From Desulfurobacteriaceae bacterium (GTDB lineage Bacteria; Aquificota; Aquificia; Desulfurobacteriales; Desulfurobacteriaceae), in the NCBI GenBank assembly GCA_027063785.1, contig JAMORC010000005.1:90050-154049 (forward strand): a stretch of DNA of 64,000 bases. Reading direction: 5' to 3'. This document shows positions 8,343 to 50,471 of the stretch, in pieces. The number at the start of each line of letters is the position of its first letter. Position 1 is the stretch's first letter. Under the pieces are notes generated by a model. The model had not been told where the DNA came from. It was given only the letters and a program-made list of their open reading frames with translations, and did no database searches. A program made the translations under genes and the position numbers.

Positions 8343-8350
8343 GAGAAGTT

Positions 8351-9415: not shown

Positions 9416-9416
9416 G

Positions 9417-34203: not shown

Positions 34204-34209
34204 TTTCCG

Positions 34210-34366: not shown

Positions 34367-34372
34367 TGTATT

Positions 34373-35113: not shown

Positions 35114-35790
35114 TTTCTCTTGACCCGGAAGCTCTCTTTTCCATAAAACTCTCTTTAAAAGTTTCAACCATTTCTGTGCTTTTAGTTACACTGCTTGGAC
35201 TTCCTGTTGCTTACTTTTTAGCGTTAAAGAAGTTTCCGTTTAAGAACCTGTTAGACGCTTTGATAACTCTACCTTTAGTTTTTCCCCCTACCGTTACCGG
35301 TTATCTTCTGCTTTTACTTTTGGGCAAAAACGGGGTTATCGGTTCTTTGATTTATAAGCTTTTCAAAACAGGAATAGTATTTACCTGGTATGCTGCTGTT
35401 GTTGCTTCTTCCGTTGCTGCTTTCCCGATTTTCGTTAAAGGGGCAAGAGCTGCAATGGAATCGGTTGACAGAAACCTTATATACGTTTCTTATACTTTGG
35501 GCAAAGGTGAGCTGAAGACCTTTTTTAAGGTTGTTTTACCCCTTGCTAAAAGAGGAATAATTGCGGCAGTTGTCCTCTCTTTTGCAAGGGCGATGGGTGA
35601 GTTCGGCGCCACTCTTATGCTTGCAGGCAATATTCCTTTTCAAACGAATACGATACCGATAGAGATTTACAGTGCAGTGTCGGGTGGAGATTTTGAAAAA
35701 GCCAATCTATTGTCTGCAGTTACGGCTGTGATTTCTCTAACTATTCTTTACCTGATAAACCGATTAACTAACAGAGGTGAGAAATGGTAG
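35110..35790 (+). CDS. modB: molybdate ABC transporter permease
   Basis: CysTW-type permease with the EAA-like loop [19 protein letters not shown] overlap with modA. Confidence 0.85.
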
Positions 35791-37684: not shown

Positions 37685-38690
37685 GGTTGAAAATGCTGTA
37701 GGAATGGTTCTTGTTCATGATGTTACAGAGGTTGACCTGGGGAGGAATTATAAGGGAAGGGCGTTTAAGAAGGGGCATGTAATAAGGCCTGAGGATGTTG
37801 AGAAGTTAAAAAGGCTCGGTAAGGACTACGTTTACGTCCTTGAGCTTTCTCCGGATGAGATCCACGAGGATGAAGCGGCTGTTCTCTTGGCGGAAGCCAT
37901 TATGGGGGAAAACACTTATAGGGATGAGGAGCCGAGAGAGGGGAAGATTAATATTTACTCTTCCGTTTTCGGAGTTGTAAAGGTTGATGTTGAAAAGCTC
38001 TTTCGATTTAACATGGTAGGGGAGCCTTCATGTCCGACTATTCATTCTGATATGTACGTAAAACCCGGTGAGAAGATTGCTGCTGTTCGGATTATTTCCC
38101 TTGTTGCTCCGAGGAAGGAGGTAAAAGAAGCTGTAAGGATTGCCGGTGACGGCATTGTCAGGGTTGTTCCCTTTGAGGAAAAAAGGGCTGGAATAATCAT
38201 TACGGGTAATGAGGTGTACTACGGGAGAATTGAAGATAAGTTCTATGAACGCCTGAAGCCAAAGCTTGAGTTTTTCAAGTGCCGAGTTGAGGAAAAAGTT
38301 GTTCTCCCCGATGATAAGGAGAGGATAAAACAGAAAATTCTCGAGTTTGCAAACCGGTACGATATTGTGGTTCTTACCGGCGGAACATCTGTTGATCCCG
38401 ATGACGTTACTTACAAGGCGGTTAGGGAAGCCGGGGTTAAGAACTTCATTAGGGGCAATCCCATTCAGCCCGGTAACATGCTGAGTATGGGCTGGCTCGG
38501 TAAAGTCCCCGTTGTTGCCGTCCCGGCCGCTGCTCTCTTCTTTAAAGCAACCTCTTTTGATATCTGGCTTCCGAGGCTTCTTATAGGGGATGTTATTACG
38601 AAGGAAGAAGTTGCCAGAAAGTCCCACGGGGGTCTCTGCCACGGCTGTTCCGTTTGTGTATTTCCAGTTTGTCCCTTTGGGAGGCCGTAA
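37668..38690 (+). CDS. MoeA-N-like + MogA/MoaB-like molybdopterin-binding (MoCF biosynthesis) domain protein with a C-terminal Cys cluster
   Basis: [10 protein letters not shown] resembles the MoeA N-terminal region. [15 protein letters not shown] is MoCF-biosynthesis-domain-like. C-terminal [15 protein letters not shown]. Stop overlaps the moeA ATG (TAATG). Confidence 0.55.
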
Positions 38691-39889
38691 TGAAAGTGAC
38701 CAGGGAGGAAGCTCTTAACGTAATTCTTTCTTCGGTTGATCCGGTAAAGGTTGAAGAGTCGGTAACTCTGGAAAAAGCTTACGGTAGAATCCTTGCTGTT
38801 GATATCTTTTCCCCCGTTGACCTGCCCGATGGAGACAAATCGGCAGTTGACGGCTTTGCCTTTAAGTCCTCCTCTGCTCCCGGCAGGTTTAAGGTAATCG
38901 GGGAATCGCCTGCTGGGAGGCCGGATAGGCTTGCAGTTTCGAATGGAGAAGCCGTTTTTGTAATGACCGGAGGTTTAATACCTGAAGGTGCAGACGCTGT
39001 TGTTAGGATTGAAGACGTTAGTTTTGATGGGAATTACGTTACTGTTGATTTCCCCGTTCGGGAAGGGAACCTTATAAACTATGCAGGCAGCGAGATTAAG
39101 GAGGGAGAGAGGGTTCTTAAAAAAGGGGACCTTCTCGATTTTCGGAAAGTTGGGTTGCTTGCCAACCTTGGAATATACAGGGTAAAAGTTTTCAGGAAGC
39201 CGAGAGTAGGTGTTTTAGTAACCGGGGATGAAGTTCTTGAACCCTTTGAACCCTATTTCCTAGGTAGTGTTAGGAACTCTAACTACTATATCCTAAAAGG
39301 TATTCTGGAAAGAATCGGGGTTTCTGTTATTTACCTCGGTAAGTCTTTCGATTCTGTCGATGAGATGGCTTCGGTTTTCGGTGAAGCACTTGAAGGAGTC
39401 GATGTTCTCGTTACTACCGGGGGCGTTTCAAAGGGAAAGTACGACTTTGTTAAAGAAGTTGTTGAAAGGGTCGGGTTTGACGTTAGGTTCACTACAACGA
39501 ACATAAGGCCGGGCAGACCTTTGGTCTTCGGCGTAAAGGGCAGTAATCTGTTCTTTGGCCTTCCCGGCTATCCGGCGGCGATGCTTGTCAATGCTTTAGA
39601 ATTTCTCGTTCCTGCCCTCCGAAAGCTTTCAGGGAGGAAGGAATTTTTTAACCGATACCTTCCCGCGGTTGCCCTTGAAGATCTAAAGTCGAGGGAAGGC
39701 AGGGTTGATTTCGTAAGGGTTAACCTTGAAGTTTTCGACGGAAGACTCGGAGTTGTCAACGCCGGAAGCCAGCAAACCTCTAACTTCCTCTCCATGGCAA
39801 TGTGTGACGGTTTGGCCGTTATAGGAGCTGACAGAGGAACGGTTAGGAAAGGAGAGTTTGTTGACCTGCTGCTTTTTGACAGGATATAG
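38690..39889 (+). CDS. moeA: molybdopterin molybdotransferase
   Basis: ATG 38690 after GGGAGG ([13 protein letters not shown]...). Motifs SAVDGFAF, VMTGGLIPEGADAV, VLVTTGGVSKGKYDFV. Confidence 0.85.
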   Translation: MKVTREEALNVILSSVDPVKVEESVTLEKAYGRILAVDIFSPVDLPDGDKSAVDGFAFKSSSAPGRFKVIGESPAGRPDRLAVSNGEAVFVMTGGLIPEGADAVVRIEDVSFDGNYVTVDFPVREGNLINYAGSEIKEGERVLKKGDLLDFRKVGLLANLGIYRVKVFRKPRVGVLVTGDEVLEPFEPYFLGSVRNSNYYILKGILERIGVSVIYLGKSFDSVDEMASVFGEALEGVDVLVTTGGVSKGKYDFVKEVVERVGFDVRFTTTNIRPGRPLVFGVKGSNLFFGLPGYPAAMLVNALEFLVPALRKLSGRKEFFNRYLPAVALEDLKSREGRVDFVRVNLEVFDGRLGVVNAGSQQTSNFLSMAMCDGLAVIGADRGTVRKGEFVDLLLFDRI

Positions 39890-39978: not shown

Positions 39979-40008
39979 TTGACAAGAGATTTTTTATTAT
40001 TGTAATAT
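39979..40008 (+). promoter_or_regulatory. candidate sigma70 promoter of the cytochrome/beta-barrel operon
   Basis: TTGACA (39979-84), 18-nt AT-rich spacer, TAATAT (40003-08) with TG just upstream, in the only AT-rich intergenic stretch (39890-40040). About 30 nt upstream of GTG 40041. Confidence 0.35.
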
Positions 40009-40040: not shown

Positions 40041-41306
40041 GTGGGGATAGATAAGAAGGCTCTGATGCTGGGAATGGGGATAGGACTCCTGGTAGCCGAT
40101 CCCGCCTTTTCTTCCGCCTCTATTCCTGCCTTCGAAGGGGAACTGAAGACGCAGGTTGAATTCAGAGAAGACATAAGGGATAGAGATTCCACTCCCTTTG
40201 ATACTTACCTGAAGTTGGATGTCAGGGATTTAAAAGGTAAGTCGGAACTTCACTTTTACGGAAAGCTCTGGAAGGATCTCGGAAGGGGAACTGATTGGGA
40301 TGCCGATCTCTTTCAACTCTACGTGGATACTCCGCTTAACAGAGAGTTTAAGCTATCTGTCGGTAGACAGTTCATATCCGAAGGCTTTGAAACTTACATT
40401 GCTGATGCTGTGAGACTAACTCGATCTTCGAAAAAGGGACTTCGCTACGTTTTCTATTTGGGTAAGCCGAGGTACTTTGAGCCGAACACGCGGAGCGGAG
40501 ATGACCTTTTAGCCGGTTTTAAGTTGGATTACAAAGGTTTCTTCTTGGGTTTTGAACATGTTAGGAAAAACGGAGATGTGAGGAAAAGTTCCTTCCTTTT
40601 CGGCGATTACAGGTATCTTACCAGGGAGCTTGCTCAGTATGCGAGACTTGAACTTGACGTTGCCCACGGAGAACTTCTTAGCTGGAACTTGGGAATTGAT
40701 TACTTCCCTACCAAGAAGTTAAGGCTTAACTCTGATCTGGAGTTTTACGACGGCAGTTATACCTATGGAGACGGAGTAAGGGAGAACGAGCTTTTCTATC
40801 TGTTCTCGAGCGGCAGGGAACTGCGATTTACTCAAAGCGTTTACTACGATTTAACGAAAGTCTGGCAGGTTTTTGGAAGCTACACGTTTACAGACCTTCA
40901 GAGGAAAGGTAAGGATAACGGTCATCTAATAAAGCTCGGACTTGTAAGGGATACTTGGTTTGATAACGGGCTGAGGAGCTACGGTTCTCTTCTTTATCAG
41001 AACAGTTGGTTTGGAATAATGAAGGGTTTTGAGGTCGGGTTTACGAAATACTTCTGCAGAAAACTCACCCTTACGGGAATGCTTGATGTTGCCCACTACG
41101 ACAAGATTACTTACGGAAGCCAGTGGTCGAATGCCCTTTACTTGAAAGGAACTTACGCAGTTACTGAGTTCTCGAACTTTGAGCTTGGAATCGACTACAG
41201 GAAGAATGAGGATTTTGATAGGGATGCCAGGGTAATACTCAGGTATAACTACCTCTTCTGGGGTGGAAGTTCATACAAAGAAAGGAGAGTCGAGGAAAGG
41301 AAATGA
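40041..41306 (+). CDS. secreted outer-membrane beta-barrel protein (porin-like), first gene of the multiheme cytochrome operon
   Basis: GTG start. Signal peptide MGIDKKALMLGMGIGLLVADPAFSSA. Alternating amphipathic beta-strand pattern, many Y/F/W. ~421 aa, no Cys motifs. Confidence 0.55.
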   Translation: MGIDKKALMLGMGIGLLVADPAFSSASIPAFEGELKTQVEFREDIRDRDSTPFDTYLKLDVRDLKGKSELHFYGKLWKDLGRGTDWDADLFQLYVDTPLNREFKLSVGRQFISEGFETYIADAVRLTRSSKKGLRYVFYLGKPRYFEPNTRSGDDLLAGFKLDYKGFFLGFEHVRKNGDVRKSSFLFGDYRYLTRELAQYARLELDVAHGELLSWNLGIDYFPTKKLRLNSDLEFYDGSYTYGDGVRENELFYLFSSGRELRFTQSVYYDLTKVWQVFGSYTFTDLQRKGKDNGHLIKLGLVRDTWFDNGLRSYGSLLYQNSWFGIMKGFEVGFTKYFCRKLTLTGMLDVAHYDKITYGSQWSNALYLKGTYAVTEFSNFELGIDYRKNEDFDRDARVILRYNYLFWGGSSYKERRVEERK

Positions 41307-41905
41307 GAGGAATTGCTGTTCTTTTGTTCTGTATAGCGGCCTTTTCCCTATTCTCCTGTGGTAAGGGAAATGTGAAGTATAAGGAGGAACTCGGCGCTAC
41401 GGCAAAGTTCCACCACAGGGATCATAAGGAATTTATCGATAGTCACGGCTGCATTCCGTGCCACAAAATGAACGTTGAAATGAGCTGGGCTGATATAGAG
41501 GCTGCAGAGAGGGGTTCAAAGAAAGTAATTATGCCTTCAAAAGTAACCTGCCATTACTGCCACAATAATCCGGGTAAGACGCCGGCTCCTAACGCTCCAA
41601 CAAAGTGTTACATATGTCACTTTAACATGAAAGAAATAGAGCCGGCCGACCATAAGACCGGGAACTGGCTGAAAACTCACAGGTTTGCCTATGAAGGGGA
41701 TCCCGAAAGGTGTGATGAGTGCCACAGACAGCGCTTCTGCATCGATTGCCATGCCAAGCGGGATGTTATCCAGCATTTCGTTCATCCGAGGAACTACGAT
41801 TATACCCACAGCATAGAGGCTGCTGCGGATCCTGCCAAGTGCGGCAGGTGTCACCGACCGGGTTTCTGTATGGAATGTCATACAAAGGGGATGTGGACGA
41901 GATGA
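41303..41905 (+). CDS. heptaheme c-type cytochrome lipoprotein (doubled-CxxCH type)
   Basis: ATGA overlap with the previous gene. Lipobox LFSC. 7 CxxCH (CIPCH, CHYCH, CYICH, CDECH, CIDCH, CGRCH, CMECH) in 200 aa. Confidence 0.8.
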   Translation: MRGIAVLLFCIAAFSLFSCGKGNVKYKEELGATAKFHHRDHKEFIDSHGCIPCHKMNVEMSWADIEAAERGSKKVIMPSKVTCHYCHNNPGKTPAPNAPTKCYICHFNMKEIEPADHKTGNWLKTHRFAYEGDPERCDECHRQRFCIDCHAKRDVIQHFVHPRNYDYTHSIEAAADPAKCGRCHRPGFCMECHTKGMWTR

Positions 41906-42774
41906 GAAAGGGAATGGCTTTACTTTTGTTCTTGGTTACCGGTTTGACGGTTAACTCTTACGGAAAAGAGTGCGGTGGAGTTGGCTATACCGGCAAGGAG
42001 GACGGCTTCTGCCTAAAATGTCACTCTTCCGGCTGCCCGATTGTTCACCCTCTTTCCTGTAAAGTTGAAGAGACCGATTGTATAAAGCTTCCTTCCCGAT
42101 TTCCCTTGAAAGACGGCAGGATGGCCTGTACCACATGTCATGATATGGCTTCAAAAAACCGCTATTTTCTGAGATCCAGAAAACCTATTAAAAAGAGGTT
42201 TGACTTCTGCTTCCAGTGCCACAATCCGGAATGCTATAGGAAGTTTAACCCTCACGAAGCGATAGGAAAAGATTTACCGTGGCAGGAGAAGAAGAAGGCC
42301 TGTATTTACTGTCACGGTGTCGGGGCAAGACTTGAGGCTTACAAGGCCTGTGTGGGGTGCCATACGGAAACTCCTCACGTCGGCGCTCCCGAGCATATGC
42401 TGGCTTCGGAAGATAAGGTTAAGAAGCTTACTGAGGGTAAGAAGGGAGTCTTTGAGATAAGTTCAATGAAAGAGCTGAAACCGAAGATTTCCCTGGAAGA
42501 GTTAAAAGGAAGGAAAGCGAAAGTGATACTCGTTAAAGGCAGGATAGAGTGTATAACCTGTCACAATCCTCATCCCCAGATAGCCTATGAAGCCGAAGCA
42601 CTTTCCGGAGATTGGGCAAAAGTGGTGTTGGGAGATATCGAGTATAAGCTTAAAAAGCTGGAACTTTCTCTTAACAGGTTTTCGGTTAATAAAGAAGCTG
42701 TCAAGCTTATGAGCCGGCCTGTGGAAGCCGGAAAACTGTGTACCGTTTGTCACTCTATTAATTCGTTGAAGTAG
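41902..42774 (+). CDS. heptaheme periplasmic c-type cytochrome
   Basis: ATG 41902 overlapping the previous stop (ATGA). Signal peptide MRKGMALLLFLVTGLTVNSYG. 7 CxxCH (CLKCH, CTTCH, CFQCH, CIYCH, CVGCH, CITCH, CTVCH). Confidence 0.8.
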   Translation: MRKGMALLLFLVTGLTVNSYGKECGGVGYTGKEDGFCLKCHSSGCPIVHPLSCKVEETDCIKLPSRFPLKDGRMACTTCHDMASKNRYFLRSRKPIKKRFDFCFQCHNPECYRKFNPHEAIGKDLPWQEKKKACIYCHGVGARLEAYKACVGCHTETPHVGAPEHMLASEDKVKKLTEGKKGVFEISSMKELKPKISLEELKGRKAKVILVKGRIECITCHNPHPQIAYEAEALSGDWAKVVLGDIEYKLKKLELSLNRFSVNKEAVKLMSRPVEAGKLCTVCHSINSLK

Positions 42775-42784
42775 GGGGTAGAGA

Positions 42785-43879
42785 GTGAAAGCCTTTATAG
42801 TTGGACTGACGGGAGCTTTCCTTCTGGCGGGAACTGCTCTTGGCGGCGGGATATCCGACGACGGGTGCTTGGTCTGTCATAGGCTTAAGGGACTTTCGGT
42901 CGTTGATGAGGATAATAGAGTAAGGGACTGTAGTATTAACGATGCCCTTTACGCTCACTCAATTCACAGAAATGTCGGTTGTACTGAGTGTCATGACAGA
43001 ATAGAACAGTATCCCCATAAACCTGAGAATGTGGCGGCAAACTGTGCAAATAAGTGTCACGTCGCTGATCCTTCGACGAAAAAGCCCTTTTCTCACGGGG
43101 AAGTTTTTAAAACGTGGAAGGAAAGCGTTCACGGTAAGAATTATGAGAAGGCTCCAGATATCTATCCTTACTGTAGCTACTGTCATACGAACGACCTCCT
43201 CATAGACGTTAAGAAATTTGAAGCCCTAGAGGGGAGCTTTGGCCGTTGTTCGATCTGCCATCAGAACAGAGAGTGGGCAGAAGACAGGCTGGCTCACGTT
43301 GCTTCAAGAGAACCTCTTCCGATTATAAAGAACGGTTTTGTCCACCAATTTATCAAGACAAGGAGGGACGGCTGGGAGATTGTTGAATTGTGTGCATCCT
43401 GTCATGAGGATGAAGAGAAGATGGAGAAAGCTATTGAGATAGAGGGTATTCACAATAAGTACGAAAAGGAAAGGATACTTACGGCCGTTGAGTCCTATAA
43501 GGTGACTATGCACTCAAAGATGCTGTACCTTGATAGGAATGATACGAGGGCTGCTGATTGTTTGGATTGTCATACCAACAAGGGAGGGAATTTCCACGAT
43601 ATATTCCATAAGAGTGATCCGAGATCTTCCGTTAACGTGAAGAACATAGAGTTGACCTGTGGCAGATCAACTGAATGTCATCCCCTTGCTCCTGCCAAGG
43701 ATATGAAGAATTTCGCCACTACTAAGTGGGTTCATATGCATCCGGTTCCGGATACTCTCGGTCAGAAGATAGTGAAAATTGTTGAGGAGTTTATGTTCTG
43801 GCTTACTACGGGAACGCTACTTTTTGCCGTTACAATTGTTGGACTTGACCTACTTAAAAACTTGAGGAGGAAGCACTAA
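42785..43879 (+). CDS. multiheme c-type cytochrome with C-terminal transmembrane anchor (partner of the downstream cytochrome b)
   Basis: GTG start after GGGGGT. Signal peptide. Six canonical CxxCH (CLVCH, CTECH, CSYCH, CSICH, CASCH, CLDCH) plus CANKCH (Cx3CH) and CGRSTECH. C-terminal helix FMFWLTTGTLLFAVTIVGLDLL. Confidence 0.8.
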   Translation: MKAFIVGLTGAFLLAGTALGGGISDDGCLVCHRLKGLSVVDEDNRVRDCSINDALYAHSIHRNVGCTECHDRIEQYPHKPENVAANCANKCHVADPSTKKPFSHGEVFKTWKESVHGKNYEKAPDIYPYCSYCHTNDLLIDVKKFEALEGSFGRCSICHQNREWAEDRLAHVASREPLPIIKNGFVHQFIKTRRDGWEIVELCASCHEDEEKMEKAIEIEGIHNKYEKERILTAVESYKVTMHSKMLYLDRNDTRAADCLDCHTNKGGNFHDIFHKSDPRSSVNVKNIELTCGRSTECHPLAPAKDMKNFATTKWVHMHPVPDTLGQKIVKIVEEFMFWLTTGTLLFAVTIVGLDLLKNLRRKH

Positions 43880-44811
43880 TGGGACTCTGGGAGGCATTTA
43901 AAGAGAGGTTTAGGATAAGGCCGGACCAGGATAAACTCCTTATCGTCGATGGAGAGAGAATTCTTATACAGAAATTTACTCTGTTCCAAAGGCTTCTTCA
44001 CGTTGGAATATTTTCCACCTTTATCTGGCAGATAATCACCGGATATCCCCTAAAGTTCTACAACACGGAGTGGGCTAAGCCGTTGATTGCTCTTCTCGGC
44101 GGAATTACCGGAGAAATGACCATTCACAGAATATCGGGATTTATAATGTTCGCCGACTTCCTCCTTACTGTTCTGTATATGATCCTTATACTTATAGCTA
44201 ACTGGGATCTTGCTAAAAAGGACTTTTTCGGGTATTTCAGAATCGTTCCCGGGCCTTCCGACGTAACTTTTGTTCATTATGTAAAGTACCTGCTCGGTTT
44301 CAGAAAAGTGCCTCCGGATTGGGACGAGTACATCTGGGTTGACAAGTTTGATTTCTGGGCGGTTGGTTGGGGTATGCTGGCCATTGGTATTACGGGATGG
44401 ATGCTTTGGCTTCCCGAAGTTTTTACCGGCTTTCTCCACCTTCCGCCGGAGACGATACAGATTGCTTACTTAATGCACTCGGATGAGGCTGTACTGGCGC
44501 TGGGTTGGATTGCCCTTGTTCACATGTACGTTGTTCACTACGGTCCCAATAAATTCCCTATGGACTGGATTTGGCTTACCGGAACGGCTTCAGAGGTTGA
44601 GTGGATAGAAGAGCGCCCCAGGAGTTACAGGAGGATTATCAAGGCTGTTGCTGAGAATGAACCCCATCTCCTCGAGAAGTACCCGTTCCTCAAGGAGCGT
44701 TATCAATTTGTCCTGGAGGTGGAAAAGCTTCCTGAGGAGGAGATGATAGAGAAGATGCACGAGTATGCCCATTACCTTCTTGAGAAGGAAGTGGAAGGGA
44801 GGAATGGATAA
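43879..44811 (+). CDS. integral-membrane b-type cytochrome (Ni/Fe-hydrogenase/formate dehydrogenase gamma / PhsC-like di-heme cytochrome b family), putative quinol-oxidising subunit
   Basis: TAATG overlap with the previous gene. 4-5 TM helices with conserved His (LLHVGIFSTF, IHRISGF, LVHMYVVHYG). Confidence 0.65.
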   Translation: MGLWEAFKERFRIRPDQDKLLIVDGERILIQKFTLFQRLLHVGIFSTFIWQIITGYPLKFYNTEWAKPLIALLGGITGEMTIHRISGFIMFADFLLTVLYMILILIANWDLAKKDFFGYFRIVPGPSDVTFVHYVKYLLGFRKVPPDWDEYIWVDKFDFWAVGWGMLAIGITGWMLWLPEVFTGFLHLPPETIQIAYLMHSDEAVLALGWIALVHMYVVHYGPNKFPMDWIWLTGTASEVEWIEERPRSYRRIIKAVAENEPHLLEKYPFLKERYQFVLEVEKLPEEEMIEKMHEYAHYLLEKEVEGRNG

Positions 44812-45524
44812 TGAAGAGGTTGATCCTTGCTCTTTTCGTTCTGCCGATAGCCGTTCAGGGAGCTGAGAACCCGCTTCTCTCCGCTCCTGCCAAGGACATT
44901 TCTAAATGGGAGAATAAACTGAAGGAGTTTGAAAGACCGGAGCTGCCCAGGAAGGAAGGTTATCCGAGGCCGTTTCACTTGCCTAACGGCTATAAGTACT
45001 CCCTTGATGATGTCTGTTTGGCCTGTCACACCTTTGCTGCCCATAAGAAGGATAAGAAGTACGCTCCTTTTTACAACGCCCACGGAACCTTCTTGAGCTG
45101 CACAACGTGCCATTTTGTTAAATCCGGTCTCTCGTACAGCTGGGTTGAAATCGATGGTGATAGAGCCGTTGGAAAGGAAGGAGGAGATTTTTACGGTCTT
45201 CGTTATATAAGGAACGGTAATAGGGTTATCCTTTCCGGAGGAGATAGCAGAGCAAGGATAACTCCTGTTTATGATGGAGCTCCTCTTGTTATCCCTCTTA
45301 AAGGTAATGAGTCTCTTCTGAAAGACGTTAAGGCCGTTTCAAAGATGCACTCTGCTCTTACTGAGAAGGTTTTGAAGTGTGAGGATTGCCACAGGGAGAA
45401 AGGTGTTCTTGACTTTCGCGCTTTAGGTTTTAGTGATGAAAGGGTAAAGGATCTTGAGGAAAACGAGGTAGTGAAAGGATTAAAAGAGTATAAGACGATT
45501 CACTTCCCCAAATTTATCTGGTAA
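44811..45524 (+). CDS. triheme periplasmic c-type cytochrome
   Basis: TAATG overlap. Signal peptide MKRLILALFVLPIAVQGA. CLACH, CTTCH, CEDCH. Confidence 0.75.
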   Translation: MKRLILALFVLPIAVQGAENPLLSAPAKDISKWENKLKEFERPELPRKEGYPRPFHLPNGYKYSLDDVCLACHTFAAHKKDKKYAPFYNAHGTFLSCTTCHFVKSGLSYSWVEIDGDRAVGKEGGDFYGLRYIRNGNRVILSGGDSRARITPVYDGAPLVIPLKGNESLLKDVKAVSKMHSALTEKVLKCEDCHREKGVLDFRALGFSDERVKDLEENEVVKGLKEYKTIHFPKFIW

Positions 45525-45535
45525 GGGGTCAGAGA

Positions 45536-46339
45536 ATGAGGTTTATAGTTGCTGCTTTGCTTGCGATCCTGTTTTCCGTAAGAGCTGTAGCGGGAGAGGT
45601 TATAAAAGGTGACTGGAAGTTTCCTTCGGATATTGCAGTTAGTAACGGCAAACTTTACGTTGTTGACGGGCTGAACAACAGGATTGCCGTTTACGACTTG
45701 TACGGGGAGCACCTTATTGACCTTAAGGTTGATTCTCCTTACGGGATATTCGTTGATAACGGATTGGTATATGCCGTCAGTCAGAAGGGAAGACTTTACG
45801 TCCTTGATGAGTACGGGGAGCTTCTGAAGAGCTTCCCGCTGAAAGGACGGCCTATTGATGTTGTTAAGTTAAAAGACAGACTTTTCGTTAGCAACGGTGA
45901 AGGAAATACGGTGGATGTCTATACCCTTGACGGAAAGCTTGTTAAGAGGATCGGCGGAAAGGGGACTGTTCCTGGTAACTTTGTCGGTGTATTTCTGATG
46001 GACAGGGGGAAAAATCTTATTTATGTTGTTGATTCTGTTAACGCCAGGATTCAGGAGTTTGATGAGGACGGCAGGTTTGTCAGATCATTCGGGGTTTTCG
46101 GTATAGAGGAAGGGGATCTCTTCAGGCCTAAAGGGATTGCAGTCTGTAATGGTTACGTTGCTGTAAGTGACGGTATTACCGGAGCTGTTCAGCTTTTTGA
46201 TCCTTACGGCGGATTTGAGAACGTGATTGCTGAAGGTCTTTACTACCCTACAGCCCTTAGCTGCTATGACGGAGAGGTTTTTGTCCTTGAACCTCTGAAG
46301 AACAGAGTTTCTACATTTAGACTTCGGGGAGTCAAGTAA
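45536..46339 (+). CDS. secreted NHL-repeat beta-propeller protein
   Basis: Signal peptide MRFIVAALLAILFSVRAVAG. Repeated Y(V/A)VD..N.RI..(F/Y)D..G blades (LYVVDGLNNRIAVYDLYGE, YVVDSVNARIQEFDEDGRF, etc.). Confidence 0.75.
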   Translation: MRFIVAALLAILFSVRAVAGEVIKGDWKFPSDIAVSNGKLYVVDGLNNRIAVYDLYGEHLIDLKVDSPYGIFVDNGLVYAVSQKGRLYVLDEYGELLKSFPLKGRPIDVVKLKDRLFVSNGEGNTVDVYTLDGKLVKRIGGKGTVPGNFVGVFLMDRGKNLIYVVDSVNARIQEFDEDGRFVRSFGVFGIEEGDLFRPKGIAVCNGYVAVSDGITGAVQLFDPYGGFENVIAEGLYYPTALSCYDGEVFVLEPLKNRVSTFRLRGVK

Positions 46340-49011
46340 TGAGGAAATCGTTACTGGTTCTTTTAACGGTTCTTGTTTTGCCCGGTGTTTCTGAAGCGAA
46401 GTTGAAAAAGAGTATGAAGAAGGAGTGCCTTGTTTGTCACCAGAACTGGCTCCTTGAGTCGAAGATTAAGTCCCCGACTCTTTTAACCAAGAATTCTTTT
46501 CAGGCTGCTGACAAGTTGATGTGCCTTTCCTGTCACGACGGCTCAATGGCTGACGATAGGCTTACGTTTCTGGGTTTTGATCATTTTTCCCATCCGGTTG
46601 ATAAGGAGGTTCCAGAGGACTTTAAAATGCCTGAGGGCTTCCCGCTGAAGGACGGGAAGCTTTACTGTGGAACTTGTCACACTCCTCATACTGAGACGGG
46701 AAGTGAGAAAAAGCTTGACTACACGTTTATGAGGAAGCCTAACGTTAATTCGGCCCTCTGTATTGAATGCCACAAGGATAACGCAGAGCACGATCTCAAC
46801 CACCCACTTCTCGAGGAAACCGAAGGAAAGCTTTCGCTGGATGAATCCCTGAGAATAAGGAAGCTTGGGGGAAAGGTTACGATTTCTGGAGAGGTTCAGT
46901 GCGAATCGTGTCACTCTTCCCACAAGGGAAGGGCGAAGAAGGCTCTTATAGAGGGGTTTGAGAAATCCCAACTCTGTATTCTCTGTCACAAAGAAAACCT
47001 GAACAGCAAGAAACATCCCAACTGGCGCAACCATCCCATTCACAAGAAATTTCCGAAAGGTGCTCGGGTTTCCTTCTTTGAAAGTAAAAAGGCGGTTACC
47101 GAATCGGTCGAGTGTATGACCTGTCACAGGGTTCACAAAGAGGAGAATAAGCATTTAGTTGTTGCAAAAGAAGAAAAGCTGTGCTCCCTCTGCCACGTTA
47201 AAGAGAGGAAGGTTGAGAGCACCGATCACAACATAGCCGGTAAATCCTGTAAGAGCTGTCATGTGCCTCACGAGGCGAAAGCTCCCAAGCTTTGGGGCAG
47301 GAAGATTCCGGAAGAGGCTTTTGAGTATGCCTCTTTAATAGGAGCTAAAGGGAAAGAGGATATTCTCTGCCTTTCCTGTCACTATCCTCAGCATAAGGTG
47401 AACGGTAAAGAAGTTAAGACTGTCGGTGTTCTTACGCATCCGACGGGGAAAGTTGTTAAAGAAAAGATTGAACTGCCCCTTACCGGTAAAAGGTTAAGCT
47501 GTATCACTTGCCACGATCCCCATCATGCTTACGACGACAGCCCGAAAGGAAAGTTCTTGAGGAAAGAGAGACTGGAACTTTGTTACACATGTCACAAGGA
47601 AGAGGCCGATGTTAGGAAAGGGCCTCACGGTAAGGTAGACGAGAGGAGATGGAAGAAAGGGGACTGTGCTGCGTGCCACAGCGTGCATAACGCCAAGGAC
47701 GGTTACCTGTCCAGGGTAGTTTACGGCGAAATTTCCCCTATGGAGCCGCCGGTTGACGGTTTCTGCCTGGCTTGCCATGACCCTGAAGGGATGGCGGAGC
47801 ATAAGGTTAAACAGTCTGTATTTAATGAACACCCTGTTGGGGTGAGGAATCCGAGTGAGGAGCTGCCCGGGAAGAAAATTTCCTGTGCAACCTGCCACGA
47901 TCCCCATACTCATAAAGAGGAGCTTCTGAGGCTACCCGTGAAGGGGGATTCGAAGCTCTGTATGACCTGCCATATTGATCAGGATCTTAAGGGAAGTTCC
48001 CATAACCTTTTAACTAACCCGGAAGTCAACTTCCCCGATAAGGAAAAGAAGAGACTCAAGGAAAAGGGAATCTGTTCTGTTTGCCATACTCCTCACAATC
48101 CAGAGTTTAAGGTTCTTTGGAGCAGGAAGCCCGGAAAAGGGAATACGATAGGCGAAAAGTTGTGTAACAGCTGTCACTCGAAAGGAGGTCTTGCAGAGGA
48201 GAAGACTGTAGGTAAGCATTCTCACCCGATCGGCAGGGAGGTTACCGATAAGAACTTAGAGGTTATAGAGCGTTCAAGGCTTCCTCTGATTAATCAGATG
48301 ACAGGTCATCCTGTAAAAAGAGGAGAAGTGGGAGTCTTTGACTGTATGACCTGTCATGAGCCCCACAACGGTGCAGATAGGGAAAGGCTTACCAGATATA
48401 CCGTTAAAGGGGACAGTGCTCTCTGTACCTCCTGCCACACCGAGGAGGCCAAGGTAATTGGAACGGATCACGATATGAGGGTTGTTAATAAGGACTTTAA
48501 GAACCTGATGGGTAAGAGCGTCCTTGAGTCTGGAGTGTGTTCTTCCTGTCACGTGCCTCACAGGGCTTTTGATGAGAAGCTGTGGGCTATGAAGGTAGAA
48601 GAGGTTACTGATAACAGAGCTTCCAATTACTGCCTGACTTGCCATAAGGAAAACGGTATCGGGCAGGATAAGGTTGTTAAATATTACTACCATCCGAAGA
48701 AGGATGTTATAGTTAGAAACCTCGACAGGCCGGGCAGGGCCGGAGATTGGCCTATTTTTGATAGCAGGGGTAAAAAGGTTTCTGTTGGCGGAGAGATAGC
48801 CTGTGAAACCTGTCATGATCCTCATGTCTGGAGCAAGTGGAGTGATAAAGTTCCGGGTAAACCGACGGAGGGTAACGCTCTTAATAGCTTCTTAAGGAAT
48901 AAGGATTTAAGGGGAAGTATCTGTGTTGACTGCCACGGCCTCGATGCTCTTTACAGGTATAAGCTCTTCCACACCGAGAAGGTTCACCAAGAGAAACCCT
49001 CTTACAAGTAA
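46339..49011 (+). CDS. 24-heme c-type cytochrome (890 aa), secreted
   Basis: TAATG overlap with the NHL gene. Signal peptide MRKSLLVLLTVLVLPGVSEA. 24 CxxCH motifs, many as CxxCHxPH (e.g. CGTCHTPH, CITCHDPH, CETCHDPH). Confidence 0.85.
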   Translation: MRKSLLVLLTVLVLPGVSEAKLKKSMKKECLVCHQNWLLESKIKSPTLLTKNSFQAADKLMCLSCHDGSMADDRLTFLGFDHFSHPVDKEVPEDFKMPEGFPLKDGKLYCGTCHTPHTETGSEKKLDYTFMRKPNVNSALCIECHKDNAEHDLNHPLLEETEGKLSLDESLRIRKLGGKVTISGEVQCESCHSSHKGRAKKALIEGFEKSQLCILCHKENLNSKKHPNWRNHPIHKKFPKGARVSFFESKKAVTESVECMTCHRVHKEENKHLVVAKEEKLCSLCHVKERKVESTDHNIAGKSCKSCHVPHEAKAPKLWGRKIPEEAFEYASLIGAKGKEDILCLSCHYPQHKVNGKEVKTVGVLTHPTGKVVKEKIELPLTGKRLSCITCHDPHHAYDDSPKGKFLRKERLELCYTCHKEEADVRKGPHGKVDERRWKKGDCAACHSVHNAKDGYLSRVVYGEISPMEPPVDGFCLACHDPEGMAEHKVKQSVFNEHPVGVRNPSEELPGKKISCATCHDPHTHKEELLRLPVKGDSKLCMTCHIDQDLKGSSHNLLTNPEVNFPDKEKKRLKEKGICSVCHTPHNPEFKVLWSRKPGKGNTIGEKLCNSCHSKGGLAEEKTVGKHSHPIGREVTDKNLEVIERSRLPLINQMTGHPVKRGEVGVFDCMTCHEPHNGADRERLTRYTVKGDSALCTSCHTEEAKVIGTDHDMRVVNKDFKNLMGKSVLESGVCSSCHVPHRAFDEKLWAMKVEEVTDNRASNYCLTCHKENGIGQDKVVKYYYHPKKDVIVRNLDRPGRAGDWPIFDSRGKKVSVGGEIACETCHDPHVWSKWSDKVPGKPTEGNALNSFLRNKDLRGSICVDCHGLDALYRYKLFHTEKVHQEKPSYK

Positions 49012-49029
49012 TTTTGAGGAGGAAAGGAA

Positions 49030-49179
49030 ATGGCCAGGGAAGTTAGTTCAAGGGATATAGAGAAAGAGGCCTGGATAGTTCTTGCGGCCGTCCTGTGTAT
49101 CCTTCTCCTTCCGATACTCGGAGTTTGGTTTGTTAAGTTCGTCCACTGGTACTCCCACTCCATCTTTATGTGGCTCTAA
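49030..49179 (+). CDS. unannotated small membrane protein (49 aa) immediately after the 24-heme cytochrome
   Basis: Strong RBS GAGGAGGAAAGG 6 nt before ATG 49030. Single TM (WIVLAAVLCILLLPILGVWFV). Below the ORF-track size cut-off. Confidence 0.35.
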   Translation: MAREVSSRDIEKEAWIVLAAVLCILLLPILGVWFVKFVHWYSHSIFMWL

Positions 49180-49193
49180 ATCGGGAGGTAGTT

Positions 49194-49328
49194 ATGGCGA
49201 AAGCTTTAAAGCAGATATTTTTCTTCCGGAAGTGGATCGCATCGGTAGAGATTATTCTATACATATTTATGTTCCTTACTCTTCTGCTGACTGCCTATCA
49301 GCACTTGTTCGGCGGAGGCCACCACTAA
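49194..49328 (+). CDS. unannotated small membrane protein (44 aa), coupled to dCMP deaminase
   Basis: RBS GGGAGGT before ATG 49194. TM IILYIFMFLTLLLTAY. Stop 3 nt before the dCMP deaminase ATG. Confidence 0.35.
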   Translation: MAKALKQIFFFRKWIASVEIILYIFMFLTLLLTAYQHLFGGGHH

Positions 49329-49331
49329 AGG

Positions 49332-49796
49332 ATGGGTAGACCTTCGTGGGACGAGTACTTTATGTCCATTGCCGAGATGGTCTCCACCCGTTCTACCTGC
49401 CTCCGCAGGAAGGTAGGGGCTGTCCTCGTTAAGGATAAAAGGATAATCTCAACGGGCTACAACGGGCCTCCTTCCGGTCTGAAACATCCGGAGGAGGTTG
49501 GCTGTCTGCGGGAAAAACTGGGCGTTCCCAGCGGACAGAGGCACGAGCTTTGTAGGGGCTTACACGCGGAGCAGAACGCAATTATCCAGGCAGCCCTTCA
49601 CGGCGTATCCACTAAAGGTTCTGTACTCTACTGTACCCATTCTCCCTGCTCCCTCTGCGTAAAGATGCTCATCAACGCCGGAGTTGAAAAAGTAATATAT
49701 AAGGAGGGATATCCCGACTGGCTTGCTAAGGAAATCGCAGCAGAGGCCAACTTGCCGTTGATTCCGTTTTCGGAGGTTAAGTCTGATTCTACATAA
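49332..49796 (+). CDS. comEB: dCMP deaminase (ComEB-type cytidine/deoxycytidylate deaminase)
   Basis: Zinc motifs HAEQNAI and CTHSPCSLC. Confidence 0.85.
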
Positions 49797-49847
49797 TATT
49801 TCCGTTTCGCTTTCCCGCCCGGGTATAATTTTCAGACTACTCTTGTT

Positions 49848-50471
49848 GTGGGAGGCCTTTTGAGGGTTGTTTTAATCGCTAAGAACCTGCCGCCTTTAAA
49901 TGACGAGAAAGAACTTCTCAAACACTCCTTTTTTACTTTTCTTGTTGACGGCATCTCGAGGGCCTGCTCTCACCAGCTTGTCAGGCACAGGCCGGCTTCC
50001 TATAGCCAGCAGTCTCAGCGCTACGTTGCTATGGTCAATTTTCCCTACGTTACTCCCGACTCAGTTAAGGGGAAATCGGTTTATATCGAGGGGAAAAGGC
50101 TTTCGTATGAGAAGTTAATGGCTTTGGTAGGGAAATTTTATGAAGGTCTTGTAGAACAGGGAGTTCCAAAAGAAGATGCCCGCTTTGTTCTGCCGAACGC
50201 TTGTGCGACGAGGATCGTCTTTACTATGAACGGGGAGGAATTGGTTCATTTCCTGAGGCTCAGGACTTGCTCCAGGGCTCAGTGGGAGATAAGGGATTTG
50301 GCTGTAAGTGTTTTAAAGCTGTTGAGAAGGGAAGTTTCGGGGCTTTTTGATAGAGTTGGTCCTAACTGCTACTACCTCGGTTACTGTACCGAGGGAAAGA
50401 AGAGCTGTGGACGTCCGGATGAAGTTCGCCGTTATTTTTCTACACTGAACGAGGAGGAAGAGAATGCTTAA
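49848..50471 (+). CDS. thyX: flavin-dependent thymidylate synthase
   Basis: ThyX signature RHRPASYSQQSQRY. GTG start only ~19 nt downstream of a TATAAT (49824-29). Confidence 0.8.
   Translation: MGGLLRVVLIAKNLPPLNDEKELLKHSFFTFLVDGISRACSHQLVRHRPASYSQQSQRYVAMVNFPYVTPDSVKGKSVYIEGKRLSYEKLMALVGKFYEGLVEQGVPKEDARFVLPNACATRIVFTMNGEELVHFLRLRTCSRAQWEIRDLAVSVLKLLRREVSGLFDRVGPNCYYLGYCTEGKKSCGRPDEVRRYFSTLNEEEENA

What the first reader, a model, noticed from the sequence alone, without database searches (positions are those of the whole stretch)
40041..49011. Eight-gene, translationally coupled beta-barrel + multiheme-cytochrome operon: candidate complete trans-envelope electron conduit
The operon opens with an outer-membrane beta-barrel gene of ~420 aa with a signal peptide. 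It is followed by a 7-heme lipoprotein cytochrome c, a 7-heme periplasmic cytochrome c, and a multiheme cytochrome c with a C-terminal membrane anchor. Next come a di-heme cytochrome b membrane subunit, a 3-heme cytochrome c, a secreted NHL beta-propeller, and a 24-heme secreted cytochrome. All junctions are ATGA/TAATG overlaps or gaps of <=12 nt, and a TTGACA-18-TAATAT promoter sits in the only AT-rich intergenic stretch upstream. The architecture matches Geobacter-type systems: an inner-membrane quinol oxidase of cytochrome b plus multiheme c (Cbc-like), periplasmic carriers, and an OmbB-sized porin with an outer cytochrome. The gene order and the embedded NHL propeller are not those of any characterised Pcc/Mtr cluster, and the host looks like a vent thermophile. 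No molybdopterin, FeS or other catalytic subunit is present, so the operon reads as a pure electron conduit (metal or mineral reduction, or extracellular/interspecies electron transfer).
Basis: partly seen in the sequence, partly recalled or inferred. Interest (0 to 1): 0.85.

Follow-up and report, generated by a model that had tools for sequence, protein, structure and literature searches.

The report
Ten-gene porin–multihaem cytochrome respiratory operon
This operon from a hot-vent bacterium (family Desulfurobacteriaceae) encodes an outer-membrane barrel, six cytochromes carrying 48 haems, a membrane cytochrome b and a propeller protein, which look like a wire from the cell's quinone pool to its surface; the gene cluster was already listed in related species in 2014, but nobody has tested what it does.

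Summary
Eight intact + strand genes lie at 40041-49011, with haem-motif counts of 7, 7, 6+1, 3 and 24. They also include a PF01292 cytochrome b, an NHL propeller and a 421-aa protein modelled as a 22-strand barrel. Gene junctions are overlaps or gaps of at most 11 nt. The promoter is invariant in nine genomes.

- The unit has ten genes. Two conserved small membrane-protein genes follow at 49030-49328.
- The cluster is orthologous to the "pcc" clusters already catalogued in Desulfurobacterium thermolithotrophum and Thermovibrio ammonificans (Shi 2014).
- NHL propellers are already known from other electron-transfer clusters.

New here: the operon is a composite of two modules.
- Genes 3-8 form a core that recurs in Desulfobulbaceae and Myxococcota, and in a variant form in Methylococcales.
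- Natural fusions tie the parts together: cytochrome c + b, b + trihaem, and NHL + multihaem.
- The barrel and its adjacent 7-haem lipoprotein form a separate pair, also seen in Nitrospirota.

Orthologues of genes 1-6 are detected as proteins in H2/thiosulfate cultures.

The most likely function is a quinol-to-surface electron conduit. The substrate and the direction of flow are unknown. I rate it a new variant of a known kind, of moderate interest.

The parts
39979..40008 (+). Sigma-70-type promoter, TTGACA-18-TAATAT. It is followed by the GAGAGGG ribosome-binding site and the GTG start of g1.
   Evidence: It is the best + strand match in the region. CTTGACA and TGTAATAT are invariant or nearly so in nine Desulfurobacteriaceae genomes while the spacer varies. 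The ribosome-binding site and GTG start are conserved.
40041..41306 (+). g1: a 421-aa outer-membrane beta-barrel with 22 strands and no plug domain.
41303..41905 (+). g2: a 200-aa lipoprotein cytochrome c with 7 haems, always next to the barrel.
   Evidence: 7 CXXCH. The lipobox Cys is conserved in 13 orthologues. Homologues directly follow the barrel in Nitrospirota and in the Methylococcales-type loci (L023, L025).
41902..42774 (+). g3: a 290-aa periplasmic cytochrome c with 7 haems.
   Evidence: 7 CXXCH. PF09699 doubled CXXCH, 50.8 bits. It has a signal peptide without a lipobox. Homologues precede g4 in barrel-less clusters of Desulfobulbaceae and Myxococcota.
42785..43879 (+). g4: a 364-aa cytochrome c with 6 CXXCH + 1 CX3CH and a C-terminal membrane anchor. 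It has the CbcA-like architecture.
   Evidence: A phmmer search found 168 representative clusters at E<=1e-10. Relatives are fused to PF01292 cytochrome b or to a Fer4_5 NapH-like protein. The match to Dester_0351 of Shi 2014 rests on locus-tag numbering and the published description.
43879..44811 (+). g5: a 310-aa membrane cytochrome b of the FdnI/HydC type, PF01292.
   Evidence: PF01292, E 2.4e-13, above its cut-off. It is the most conserved protein of the operon, about 90-93% identical among the closest genomes. It is fused to a g6-like trihaem domain in Myxococcota.
44811..45524 (+). g6: a 237-aa trihaem cytochrome c from an uncharacterised family.
   Evidence: 3 CXXCH. All Pfam matches fall below their cut-offs. 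The AlphaFold2 model has pLDDT 78 and no Foldseek match in the PDB. Orthologue P0076 is Dester_0353. Distant homologues keep the same position before the NHL and multihaem genes.
45536..46339 (+). g7: a 267-aa secreted NHL-repeat beta-propeller.
   Evidence: PF01436, 40.4 bits; PF17170 six-bladed propeller. Only the scaffold residues of the repeat are conserved and there is a single His. It is fused to the multihaem cytochrome in Methylococcales-type clusters.
46339..49011 (+). g8: an 890-aa cytochrome c with 24 haems and a Sec signal peptide.
   Evidence: 24 CXXCH and 59 His. PF09699 in 9 stretches, 206 bits. TIGR03508 (the MtrA/DmsE family), 146 bits in 7 stretches, below its cut-off. The best PDB sequence match is chain 6r2q_A, at E 3.6e-7. 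The count is 24 in nine complete orthologues and 22 in L011 (two more loci are cut short). It is 13-20 in the barrel-less or distant clusters.
49030..49179 (+). s1: a 49-aa protein with a single transmembrane helix.
   Evidence: A GGAGGA ribosome-binding site lies upstream. It is 69-96% identical in 11 loci, including loci whose flanks differ. A homologue also follows the reduced cluster in L021.
49194..49328 (+). s2: a 44-aa protein with a single transmembrane helix.
   Evidence: It is 54-81% identical in 11 loci and has a hydrophobic helix.

Best explanation
This is a ten-gene respiratory operon of an uncultured Desulfurobacteriaceae bacterium (Aquificota). It joins two modules into one haem path from the quinone pool to the outer membrane.

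Module A (g3-g8, with s1 and s2):
- The di-haem cytochrome b (g5) exchanges electrons with menaquinol in the inner membrane.
- It passes them to the anchored 7-haem g4 and the trihaem g6. Together these form a CbcBA-like quinol:cytochrome c oxidoreductase.
- The NHL propeller g7 is a non-catalytic scaffold for the 24-haem g8.
- g8, together with the 7-haem g3, carries electrons across the periplasm.

Module B (g1 and g2):
- A plug-less 22-strand barrel holds or docks the 7-haem lipoprotein g2. This is a porin-cytochrome (Pcc-type) unit that carries electrons through the outer membrane.

What is shown: the gene content, the haem counts, the barrel fold, synteny, the fusions, promoter conservation, and protein expression of the orthologues of g1-g6.

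What is inferred: the physical contacts, the direction of electron flow, which cytochrome sits in the barrel, and the external partner. The family's physiology suggests elemental sulfur, polysulfide or a mineral as that partner.
For: - Anatomy.
- Barrel: 22 strands, with best structural matches to barrels that enclose a protein domain, namely TonB-receptor barrels and usher pores. It is homologous to the barrel of a Nitrospirota cluster. That cluster has a 9-haem periplasmic cytochrome and two large lipoprotein cytochromes, next to genes resembling type II secretion genes (my reading of the translated ORFs; not scanned against any family library).
- Unit conservation: the whole block is syntenic in 12 of the 13 further Desulfurobacteriaceae loci (the other is a 2.6-kb contig), some cut short by a contig end. 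Haem counts are fixed even where the flanking genes differ.
- Fusions: g4-like + cytochrome b and NapH-like + g4-like; g5 + g6; g7 + g8. These argue for physical complexes.
- Core recurrence: the g3-g8 order recurs in Desulfobulbaceae and Myxococcota. In the Myxococcota locus it lies next to a sigma-54 response regulator, as cbcBA does in Geobacter.
- Architecture: CbcA is a 7-haem cytochrome with a C-terminal anchor and CbcB is a di-haem b.
- Literature: Shi 2014 placed the orthologous barrel and cytochromes in Pcc Group III.
- No catalytic signature: no CXXCK motif, and enough His for bis-His ligation in g2, g4, g6 and g8.
- Expression: GFV12_01150, the g1 orthologue, through GFV12_01175 were detected by proteomics.
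Against: - No member of the family is reported to reduce metals or electrodes. In the searchable library only the 2014 genomic survey links the family to extracellular electron transfer.
- The orthologues are produced with soluble thiosulfate as the acceptor. GFV12_01180 and 01185, presumably g7 and g8, were not found in the protein tables.
- A lineage of the same family keeps g4-g8, an s1 homologue and a second small ORF without a barrel at the locus. The Myxococcota cluster also has no adjacent barrel. So the core works without module B.
- Surface exposure of g2 is unknown. Its homologues in the Nitrospirota loci and in L023 have no lipobox Cys; the L025 homologue is ambiguous.
- There is no dedicated large extracellular cytochrome unless g8 is exported.
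- Deleting cytochrome genes from the NHL-containing multihaem clusters of D. ferrophilus gave no Fe(III)-oxide phenotype.
- Sequence homology to Geobacter OmbB/OmaB/OmcB and to CbcA/CbcB could not be tested here.
Confidence: 0.55

Rival explanations
1. This is a periplasmic respiratory system with a substrate pore. The core g3-g8 reduces a soluble or colloidal substrate inside the periplasm, for example polysulfide, thiosulfate-derived sulfur or nitrite. The barrel g1 is a channel that admits that substrate, and g2 is an ordinary periplasm-facing lipoprotein cytochrome.
For: - The core occurs without a barrel in a sister lineage and in Myxococcota.
- The orthologues are expressed on H2/thiosulfate with no solid acceptor. 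The authors of that study suggest membrane cytochromes may pass electrons to polysulfide.
- Structural matches to g1 include 18-strand Occ-type substrate porins.
- The family respires S0, thiosulfate and nitrate.
Against: - A 22-strand plug-less barrel is far wider than a small-solute pore needs to be.
- In three phyla the barrel is invariably followed by a multihaem cytochrome gene, often overlapping it.
- No catalytic haem motif or cofactor subunit is present.
- The conserved residues of the propeller are structural only.
Confidence: 0.2
2. The hardware is the same but runs inward. The system takes electrons from an external donor and delivers them to the quinone pool through g4/g5. Candidate donors are conductive sulfide chimney minerals, Fe(II), reduced sulfur particles or a partner cell. 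This would supplement H2 oxidation.
For: - Porin-cytochrome systems are known to work in either direction, as with the mtr-type clusters involved in Fe(II) oxidation (MtoA) described in Shi 2014.
- The NHL-containing Uet cluster is proposed for electron uptake.
- The core also occurs in Methylococcales-type and Desulfobulbaceae MAGs.
- The host is an autotroph living in mineral chimneys; this point is background knowledge.
Against: - In the chemostat study the orthologues of g1, g4 and g5 fell 3.4- to 6.3-fold when H2 was limiting. An alternative donor system would be expected to rise.
- No physiological report of electrotrophy in the family was found.
Confidence: 0.15
3. g8, or g8 together with g7, is an enzyme rather than a wire. 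It would be a multihaem reductase with an open-coordination catalytic haem, acting for example on nitrite, hydroxylamine, sulfite or tetrathionate. This would fill the gap left by the absence of NrfA in ammonifying members of the family.
For: - There are weak sub-threshold matches to NrfB, NrfH and octahaem families.
- g3 has only 12 His for 7 haems, so at least two of its haems cannot be bis-His.
Against: - There is no CXXCK motif, and no match reaches any catalytic family's cut-off.
- g8 has 35 His beyond the 24 in its motifs.
- The haem number of g8 homologues runs from 13 to 24 between lineages. That suits a modular wire better than an active site.
- The block is conserved across the Desulfurobacteriaceae loci recovered here. 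Whether all of those organisms reduce nitrate was not checked.
Confidence: 0.05

Closest known systems
Pcc (porin-cytochrome) gene clusters, Group III of Shi, Fredrickson & Zachara 2014 (D. thermolithotrophum Dester_0351 region, T. ammonificans Theam_0871 region). The prototype is Geobacter OmbB-OmaB-OmcB.
   Same: This is the orthologous locus: the g6 orthologue is Dester_0353. It has a porin-like barrel gene next to multihaem cytochrome genes, one of them a lipoprotein. An associated inner-membrane cytochrome has six CX2CH plus atypical motifs.
   Different: - Haem numbers are 7 and 7, against 8 and 12 in Geobacter.
- The 2014 text I could read does not mention the cytochrome b, trihaem, NHL, 24-haem or two small membrane proteins.
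- Comparative data here pair the barrel with g2 rather than g3.
- No biochemical evidence exists for this group. Sequence homology to OmbB, OmaB or OmcB was not tested here.
Geobacter sulfurreducens CbcBA (GSU0593-0594), part of the Cbc5 cluster cbcEDCBA
   Same: A 7-haem cytochrome c with a C-terminal membrane anchor is encoded directly before a di-haem PF01292-type cytochrome b. Relatives occur as c-b fusions, as reported for cbcB-cbcA. A Myxococcota relative lies next to a sigma-54 response regulator.
   Different: - The rest of Cbc5 differs: CbcC/OmcQ is a 12-haem lipoprotein, CbcD a 2-haem HAMP protein and CbcE a membrane protein. None of these corresponds to g6, g7 or g8.
- The promoter here is sigma-70-like, with no BccR-type regulator in the window.
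- No Geobacter sequence appeared among the named relatives sampled.
Shewanella MtrCAB
   Same: The principle is the same: a multihaem cytochrome sheathed by an outer-membrane barrel. g8 shows weak MtrA/DmsE-family similarity (TIGR03508, 146 bits in 7 stretches). Its best PDB sequence match is chain 6r2q_A at E 3.6e-7, which I take to be MtrA of the MtrCAB structure although the table labels it otherwise.
   Different: g1 has no match to any Pfam family, which would include an MtrB/PioB model if the library holds one. It has 22 modelled strands rather than the 26 I recall for MtrB. No decahaem protein reaches the family cut-off. MtrB is not among the top structural hits.
NHL-containing multihaem clusters: Uet of Ca. 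Tenderia (UetC porin, UetD/E/G trihaems, UetH/I NHL, UetJ undecahaem) and D. ferrophilus DFE_0448-0451 and DFE_0461-0465
   Same: An NHL propeller is encoded among trihaem and long multihaem cytochromes, and in Uet with a barrel. The propeller is interpreted as a scaffold.
   Different: Uet contains a cupredoxin and a prolyl isomerase, and has no cytochrome b or CbcA-like pair. Homology of the individual proteins was not tested. These systems are themselves uncharacterised, and the D. ferrophilus deletions had no Fe(III)-oxide phenotype.

Membership tests
Pcc porin-cytochrome cluster | A porin-like outer-membrane beta-barrel of about 20 strands encoded in the cluster | tested here: met
   The AlphaFold2 model has 22 strands and pLDDT 82. 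Only outer-membrane barrels match it.
Pcc porin-cytochrome cluster | An adjacent gene for a periplasmic multihaem cytochrome c | tested here: met
   g3 has a signal peptide without a lipobox, 7 CXXCH and PF09699. g2 homologues in the Nitrospirota loci and in L023 also have no lipobox Cys.
Pcc porin-cytochrome cluster | An outer-membrane lipoprotein multihaem cytochrome | tested here: inconclusive
   The g2 lipobox Cys is conserved in 13 orthologues. Outer-membrane sorting and surface exposure cannot be read from sequence.
Pcc porin-cytochrome cluster | Sequence relationship to OmbB, OmaB and OmcB | not tested
Shi 2014 placed the orthologues in their Pcc Group III trees.
Pcc porin-cytochrome cluster | The isolated complex transfers electrons across a lipid bilayer | not testable with these tools
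   This needs purification and a proteoliposome assay.
CbcBA-type quinol:cytochrome c oxidoreductase | A di-haem membrane cytochrome b of the HydC/FdnI type | tested here: met
   g5 matches PF01292 at 50.7 bits against a cut-off of 30.1. Its His residues at positions 41, 83, 187, 200, 215 and 220 lie in or near stretches I judge to be membrane helices by eye. The hydropathy scan itself flagged only one helix (88-106).
CbcBA-type quinol:cytochrome c oxidoreductase | A 7-haem cytochrome c with a C-terminal transmembrane anchor, encoded next to the b subunit | tested here: met
   g4 has 6 CXXCH + 1 CX3CH and a helix at residues 336-354. It overlaps g5 by 1 nt.
CbcBA-type quinol:cytochrome c oxidoreductase | Sequence homology to GSU0594 and GSU0593 | not tested
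   The phmmer search found 736 representatives at E<=1e-3. The 20 looked up by name included no Geobacter protein. There was no direct comparison.
CbcBA-type quinol:cytochrome c oxidoreductase | Sigma-54 / BccR-dependent regulation | tested here: not met
   The conserved promoter is sigma-70-like. No ORF between the upstream molybdenum genes and g1 could encode a regulator. A sigma-54 regulator is adjacent only in the Myxococcota relative.
MtrCAB | An MtrB/PioB-family 26-strand barrel and a decahaem MtrA | tested here: not met
   g1 matches no Pfam family. TIGR03508 matches lie below its cut-off of 192 bits for every protein.
Multihaem enzymes (Nrf/Hao/Otr/Mcc) | A catalytic haem motif or a family-level match | tested here: not met
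   There is no CXXCK motif. All matches to such families lie far below their cut-offs.

The most novel reading that the evidence does not exclude
Genes 3-8 define an unnamed respiratory supercomplex that spans several phyla. A CbcBA-like quinol dehydrogenase would be hard-wired, through a trihaem subunit and an NHL-propeller scaffold, to a multihaem wire of 13-24 haems long enough to cross the periplasm. In Desulfurobacteriaceae this complex has captured a porin-cytochrome pair. The result would be a continuous all-protein path of about 48 haems from menaquinol to the cell surface in a deep-branching thermophile. That would let H2-oxidising Aquificota respire solid sulfur or minerals, or exchange electrons with conductive chimney walls, without diffusible carriers.
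Probability: 0.3. Interest if true: 0.75.

Novelty: new variant of a known kind. Interest (0 to 1): 0.55.

Why it matters
Porin-cytochrome conduits have been characterised only in mesophilic Proteobacteria and Desulfuromonadota. This one is a strictly conserved, expressed version in thermophilic, deep-branching, sulfur- and nitrate-respiring Aquificota, for which no extracellular electron transfer is known.

If it works as read, three things follow:
- It would extend extracellular respiration, or electron uptake, to a major group of hydrothermal-vent primary producers.
- It would give a candidate mechanism for how these organisms reach insoluble sulfur.
- It would supply heat-stable parts for structural work.

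The comparative result also matters. It consists of a separable core (g3-g8) and a barrel+g2 pair, linked by four kinds of natural fusion. It gives concrete, testable subunit contacts for a family of clusters that is widespread in metagenomes but has no name or known function.

Tried and rejected
- Pfam and NCBIfam scans of g1: no family found, so it is not an MtrB/PioB member.
- PDB sequence searches: nothing for g5, only E 0.79 for g4, and only weak multihaem matches for g8.
- g6 structure: an AlphaFold2 model was obtained but had no Foldseek match in the PDB. Models without haems are poor queries, so this says little.
- AlphaFold-database fold search for the barrel: that library was unavailable.
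- Link to Geobacter Cbc5:
  - Papers show that only the CbcA/CbcB architecture corresponds, and that CbcC, CbcD and CbcE are different proteins.
  - Twenty g4 relatives were looked up by name and none was from Geobacter.
  - Two literature searches for Cbc5 with NHL and for GSU0591/0592 found nothing relevant.
- Catalytic role for the NHL propeller: rejected as the leading idea, because only repeat-scaffold residues are conserved across phyla.
- Functional link to the upstream molybdenum genes: not adopted, because loci L010-L013 keep the cytochrome block with different flanks.
- Internal promoters and terminators: counts equal the chance expectation.
- Rfam scan: only the upstream Moco riboswitch.

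Full report

Yes.
- Eight intact + strand ORFs occupy 40041-49011.
- Haem-motif counts are g2 7, g3 7, g4 6 CXXCH + 1 CX3CH, g6 3 and g8 24. All other long ORFs of the 64-kb window together contain one CXXCH.
- g3 begins at the ATG at 41902, in an ATGA overlap with g2. It does not begin at the first GTG of the mechanical ORF.
- Junctions are -4, -4, +10, -1, -1, +11 and -1 nt.
- Pfam places g5 in PF01292 (E 2.4e-13) and g7 in NHL, both above their cut-offs. It finds doubled-CXXCH domains in g3 and g8.
- No catalytic family is reached in NCBIfam.
- g4 has a C-terminal hydrophobic helix. g2 has a lipobox. g3, g6, g7 and g8 have plain signal peptides.

The promoter-like TTGACA-18-TAATAT at 39979-40008 is the best + strand match. 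The scan as a whole finds no more sites than shuffled sequence does. Aligning the region upstream of g1 from nine genomes settles the matter. CTTGACA and TGTAATAT are invariant or nearly so while the spacer drifts. The GAGAGGG ribosome-binding site and the GTG start are also conserved.

**2. Who owns it?**

- Relatives of g1 come almost only from Thermovibrio, Desulfurobacterium and Desulfurobacteriaceae MAGs.
- The window's own proteins are on record from a 162,661-bp contig. Their 90% clusters carry the name "Desulfurobacteriaceae bacterium".

**3. Is the barrel a barrel?**

- g1 has no Pfam or NCBIfam family.
- An AlphaFold2 model built on 33 sequences has pLDDT 82, pTM 0.72 and 22 strands. 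It has short loops and no plug domain.
- Foldseek puts the FimD and PapC usher pores first. The best-aligned targets are barrels that enclose a folded protein domain. That fits a cytochrome sheath but does not prove one.
- MtrB is not among the top hits.

**4. Conservation and the true extent of the unit**

- A genome scan returned 18 loci.
- In 12 of the 13 further Desulfurobacteriaceae loci the block is present in the same order, as far as each contig reaches. The remaining one is a 2.6-kb contig that ends just after g1.
- Haem counts are fixed at 7, 7, 6+1, 3 and 24. One genome has 22 in g8. The g2 lipobox Cys is conserved throughout.
- Among the closest genomes, the inner-membrane proteins are the most constrained: g5 about 90-93% and g4 about 82-84%. 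The barrel (63-69%) and g3 (59-66%) are the least constrained.
Each has one hydrophobic helix. They are conserved in 11 loci at 69-96% and 54-81% identity.
- In L012 the neighbouring genes are unrelated: glutamine synthetase, an FG-GAP protein and a phosphorylase. The ten-gene block is nevertheless intact there. The conserved unit is thus 40041-49328.
- The dCMP deaminase gene starts 3 nt after s2, so read-through into housekeeping genes is possible.

**5. It was already catalogued**

- The g6 orthologue P0076 is Dester_0353 of D. thermolithotrophum DSM 11699.
- Shi, Fredrickson and Zachara (2014, PMC4245776) list pcc clusters in that strain and in T. ammonificans HB-1.
- They describe the associated inner-membrane cytochromes Dester_0351 and Theam_0871. 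These have six CX2CH plus atypical motifs and weak similarity to formate-dehydrogenase cytochrome b. They place the barrel and the periplasmic cytochrome in "Group III".
- That description fits g4, which lies two locus tags before g6.
- The passages I could read do not mention the cytochrome b, trihaem, NHL or 24-haem genes. I could not see their figure.

**6. Expression**

- P0018, 65% identical to g1, is GFV12_01150 of D. thermolithotrophum HR11.
- The supplementary proteome tables of a 2025 chemostat study (PMC12724263) list GFV12_01150, 01155, 01160 ("cytochrome c3 family"), 01165, 01170 and 01175. All were detected during growth on H2 and thiosulfate.
- At 2 µM H2, relative to 43 µM, 01150 was about 6.3-fold lower and 01165 and 01170 about 3.4-fold lower. 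Tags 01180 and 01185 were not found.
- Assigning 01155-01185 to g2-g8 is an inference from consecutive numbering and the invariant synteny.
- So the system is made without any solid acceptor. Its abundance follows the supply of electron donor.

**7. The operon is a composite: the most informative result**

(a) A reduced cluster occurs in the same family.
- A low-GC member of the family carries a 116-aa membrane protein, then g4 (49% identical), g5 (53%), g6 (44%), g7 (33%) and a 13-haem, 364-aa relative of g8. An s1 homologue and a 60-aa ORF follow. There is no barrel, g2 or g3 at the locus.
- The family assignment rests on its ATP synthase alpha subunit, which shares a 90% cluster with a named MAG.

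(b) The g4 family is large and forms natural fusions.
- A full phmmer search with g4 found 736 representatives at E<=1e-3 and 168 at E<=1e-10.
- Some are fusions of a g4-like domain to a C-terminal PF01292 cytochrome b.
- Others are fusions of an N-terminal Fer4_5 (NapH-like) membrane iron-sulfur protein to a g4-like domain.
- Named relatives come from Myxococcota, Desulfobulbaceae/Desulfocapsaceae, Thiohalomonadales, Poribacteria and Thermodesulfobacteriota.

(c) The core recurs in other phyla.
- In a Desulfobulbaceae contig the order is g3-like (7 haems), g4, g5, g6-like (3 haems), NHL, then a 17-haem g8 relative.
- In a Myxococcota contig it is g3-like, g4, a single 545-aa protein fusing g5 to g6, NHL, then a 20-haem g8 relative. 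A histidine kinase and a sigma-54 response regulator follow.
- No barrel is adjacent in the Myxococcota locus. The Desulfobulbaceae contig ends just upstream of the cluster, so that case is open.

(d) A variant with a barrel occurs in Methylococcales-type MAGs.
- The order starts with a large cytochrome that has weak matches to the MtrC/MtrF domain, then a small ORF and a 395-427-aa barrel (hhalign 94% to the g1 profile).
- A g2 homologue, an extra 8- or 16-haem cytochrome and a g3 homologue follow.
- A Fer4_5 NapH-like protein stands in place of cytochrome b, followed by a g4 homologue (30-32% identical) and a g6 homologue.
- One protein of about 890-990 aa then fuses the NHL propeller to 14-16 haems.

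(e) The barrel family also occurs in Nitrospirota.
- A 420-aa barrel (hhalign 98%, E 2.6e-13) is followed by a 9-haem g2 relative and two 9-haem lipoproteins of about 750 aa. Upstream genes on the opposite strand look like type II secretion genes. That is my reading of their translations; they were not scanned.

What follows from these comparisons:
- g4, g5 and g6 form one membrane complex. g7 and g8 form another unit.
- The membrane quinone-interacting subunit is exchangeable: cytochrome b or NapH-like.
- g3 travels with the core.
- The barrel travels with g2. The usual assignment makes the lipoprotein the outer cytochrome and g3 the barrel insert. That assignment is therefore uncertain.

**8. 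Mechanism**

The best-supported reading (confidence 0.55) is a haem relay:
1. Menaquinol passes electrons to the b haems of g5.
2. They move to g4 and g6.
3. They move to g8 (held by g7) and g3.
4. They reach g2 in or at the barrel g1.
5. They leave to an external partner.

- g8 has one haem per 37 residues and weak MtrA/DmsE-family similarity. It also has 35 His beyond those in its motifs. This is consistent with an all-bis-His wire.
- Twenty-four haems in a line could span a periplasm. That is an inference from typical haem spacing, not a result.
- The propeller conserves only its repeat scaffold.
- Nothing here fixes the direction of flow or the substrate.
- The rivals are given in the Rival explanations section with their evidence: periplasmic chemistry with g1 as a substrate pore, inward electron flow, and a hidden enzyme.

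**9. Comparison with known systems**

- In architecture the operon is a Pcc-type cluster joined to a CbcBA-like quinol dehydrogenase. CbcA is a 7-haem cytochrome with a C-terminal anchor and CbcB is a di-haem b.
- The remaining Cbc5 genes (OmcQ/CbcC, CbcD, CbcE) do not correspond to g6-g8.
- It is not an Mtr system.
- NHL propellers are known in Uet and in D. ferrophilus clusters. In D. ferrophilus, deleting the cytochrome genes of those clusters left Fe(III)-oxide reduction intact.
- Direct homology to the Geobacter proteins could not be tested.

**10. Verdict**

- The locus type is already in the literature as a genomic prediction. "Categorically new" is therefore excluded.
- Several features are not described in anything I could find. 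These are the ten-gene extent, the separable g3-g8 core across at least four phyla, the four fusion types and the barrel-g2 pairing.
- The system has not been tested experimentally.
- I rate it a new variant of a known kind, interest 0.55.

Noticed in passing
window 49030-49179 and 49194-49328: Two conserved genes for small single-helix membrane proteins (49 and 44 aa) directly follow the 24-haem gene. They are kept even where the flanking genes differ. They probably belong to the inner-membrane complex.
   Followed up: yes
window 34203-39889; L016 16993-18246; L018 16959-18212: A Moco (molybdenum cofactor) riboswitch (75.8 bits) is followed by ORFs that I read as molybdate-transporter genes and two MoeA-like genes, running up to the cytochrome promoter. 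These labels were not checked against a family library. This neighbourhood is kept in most Desulfurobacteriaceae loci. A MoeA homologue also directly follows the related barrel-cytochrome cluster in two Nitrospirota loci. It may be coincidence; no link between MoeA and cytochromes is known to me.
   Followed up: partly
window 49328-51792: The ORF I read as a dCMP deaminase gene starts 3 nt after s2, and ORFs resembling thyX and tldD follow closely. No convincing terminator lies between. The respiratory operon may therefore be co-transcribed with housekeeping genes.
   Followed up: no
L019-L021, about 8524-13969: A low-GC member of the same family has a reduced cluster. It runs from a 116-aa membrane protein through g4, g5, g6 and g7 to a 13-haem, 364-aa cytochrome. 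An s1 homologue and a 60-aa ORF follow. It lacks the barrel, g2 and g3.
   Followed up: yes
L023-L026, about 2500-12800: Methylococcales-type MAGs carry a related cluster. A NapH-like Fer4_5 membrane protein replaces cytochrome b, and the NHL propeller is fused to a 14-16-haem cytochrome. A large cytochrome (up to about 910 aa) with weak MtrC/MtrF-domain matches lies upstream. I found no description of this cluster in the literature.
   Followed up: partly
L028 9143-10780 and 14647-17146: A Myxococcota contig fuses the cytochrome b and the trihaem cytochrome into one 545-aa protein. It places a histidine kinase and a sigma-54 response regulator after the cluster, which recalls BccR next to Geobacter cbcBA.
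   Followed up: partly
window 41902-42774: g3 has only 12 His for 7 CXXCH motifs, plus 5 extra Cys and 7 Met. At least two of its haems cannot be bis-His ligated.
   Followed up: no
L011 16244-18649: One Desulfurobacteriaceae lineage has a diverged g8 that is 38% identical, 802 aa long and carries 22 haems. The rest of its cluster is 47-73% identical.
   Followed up: no
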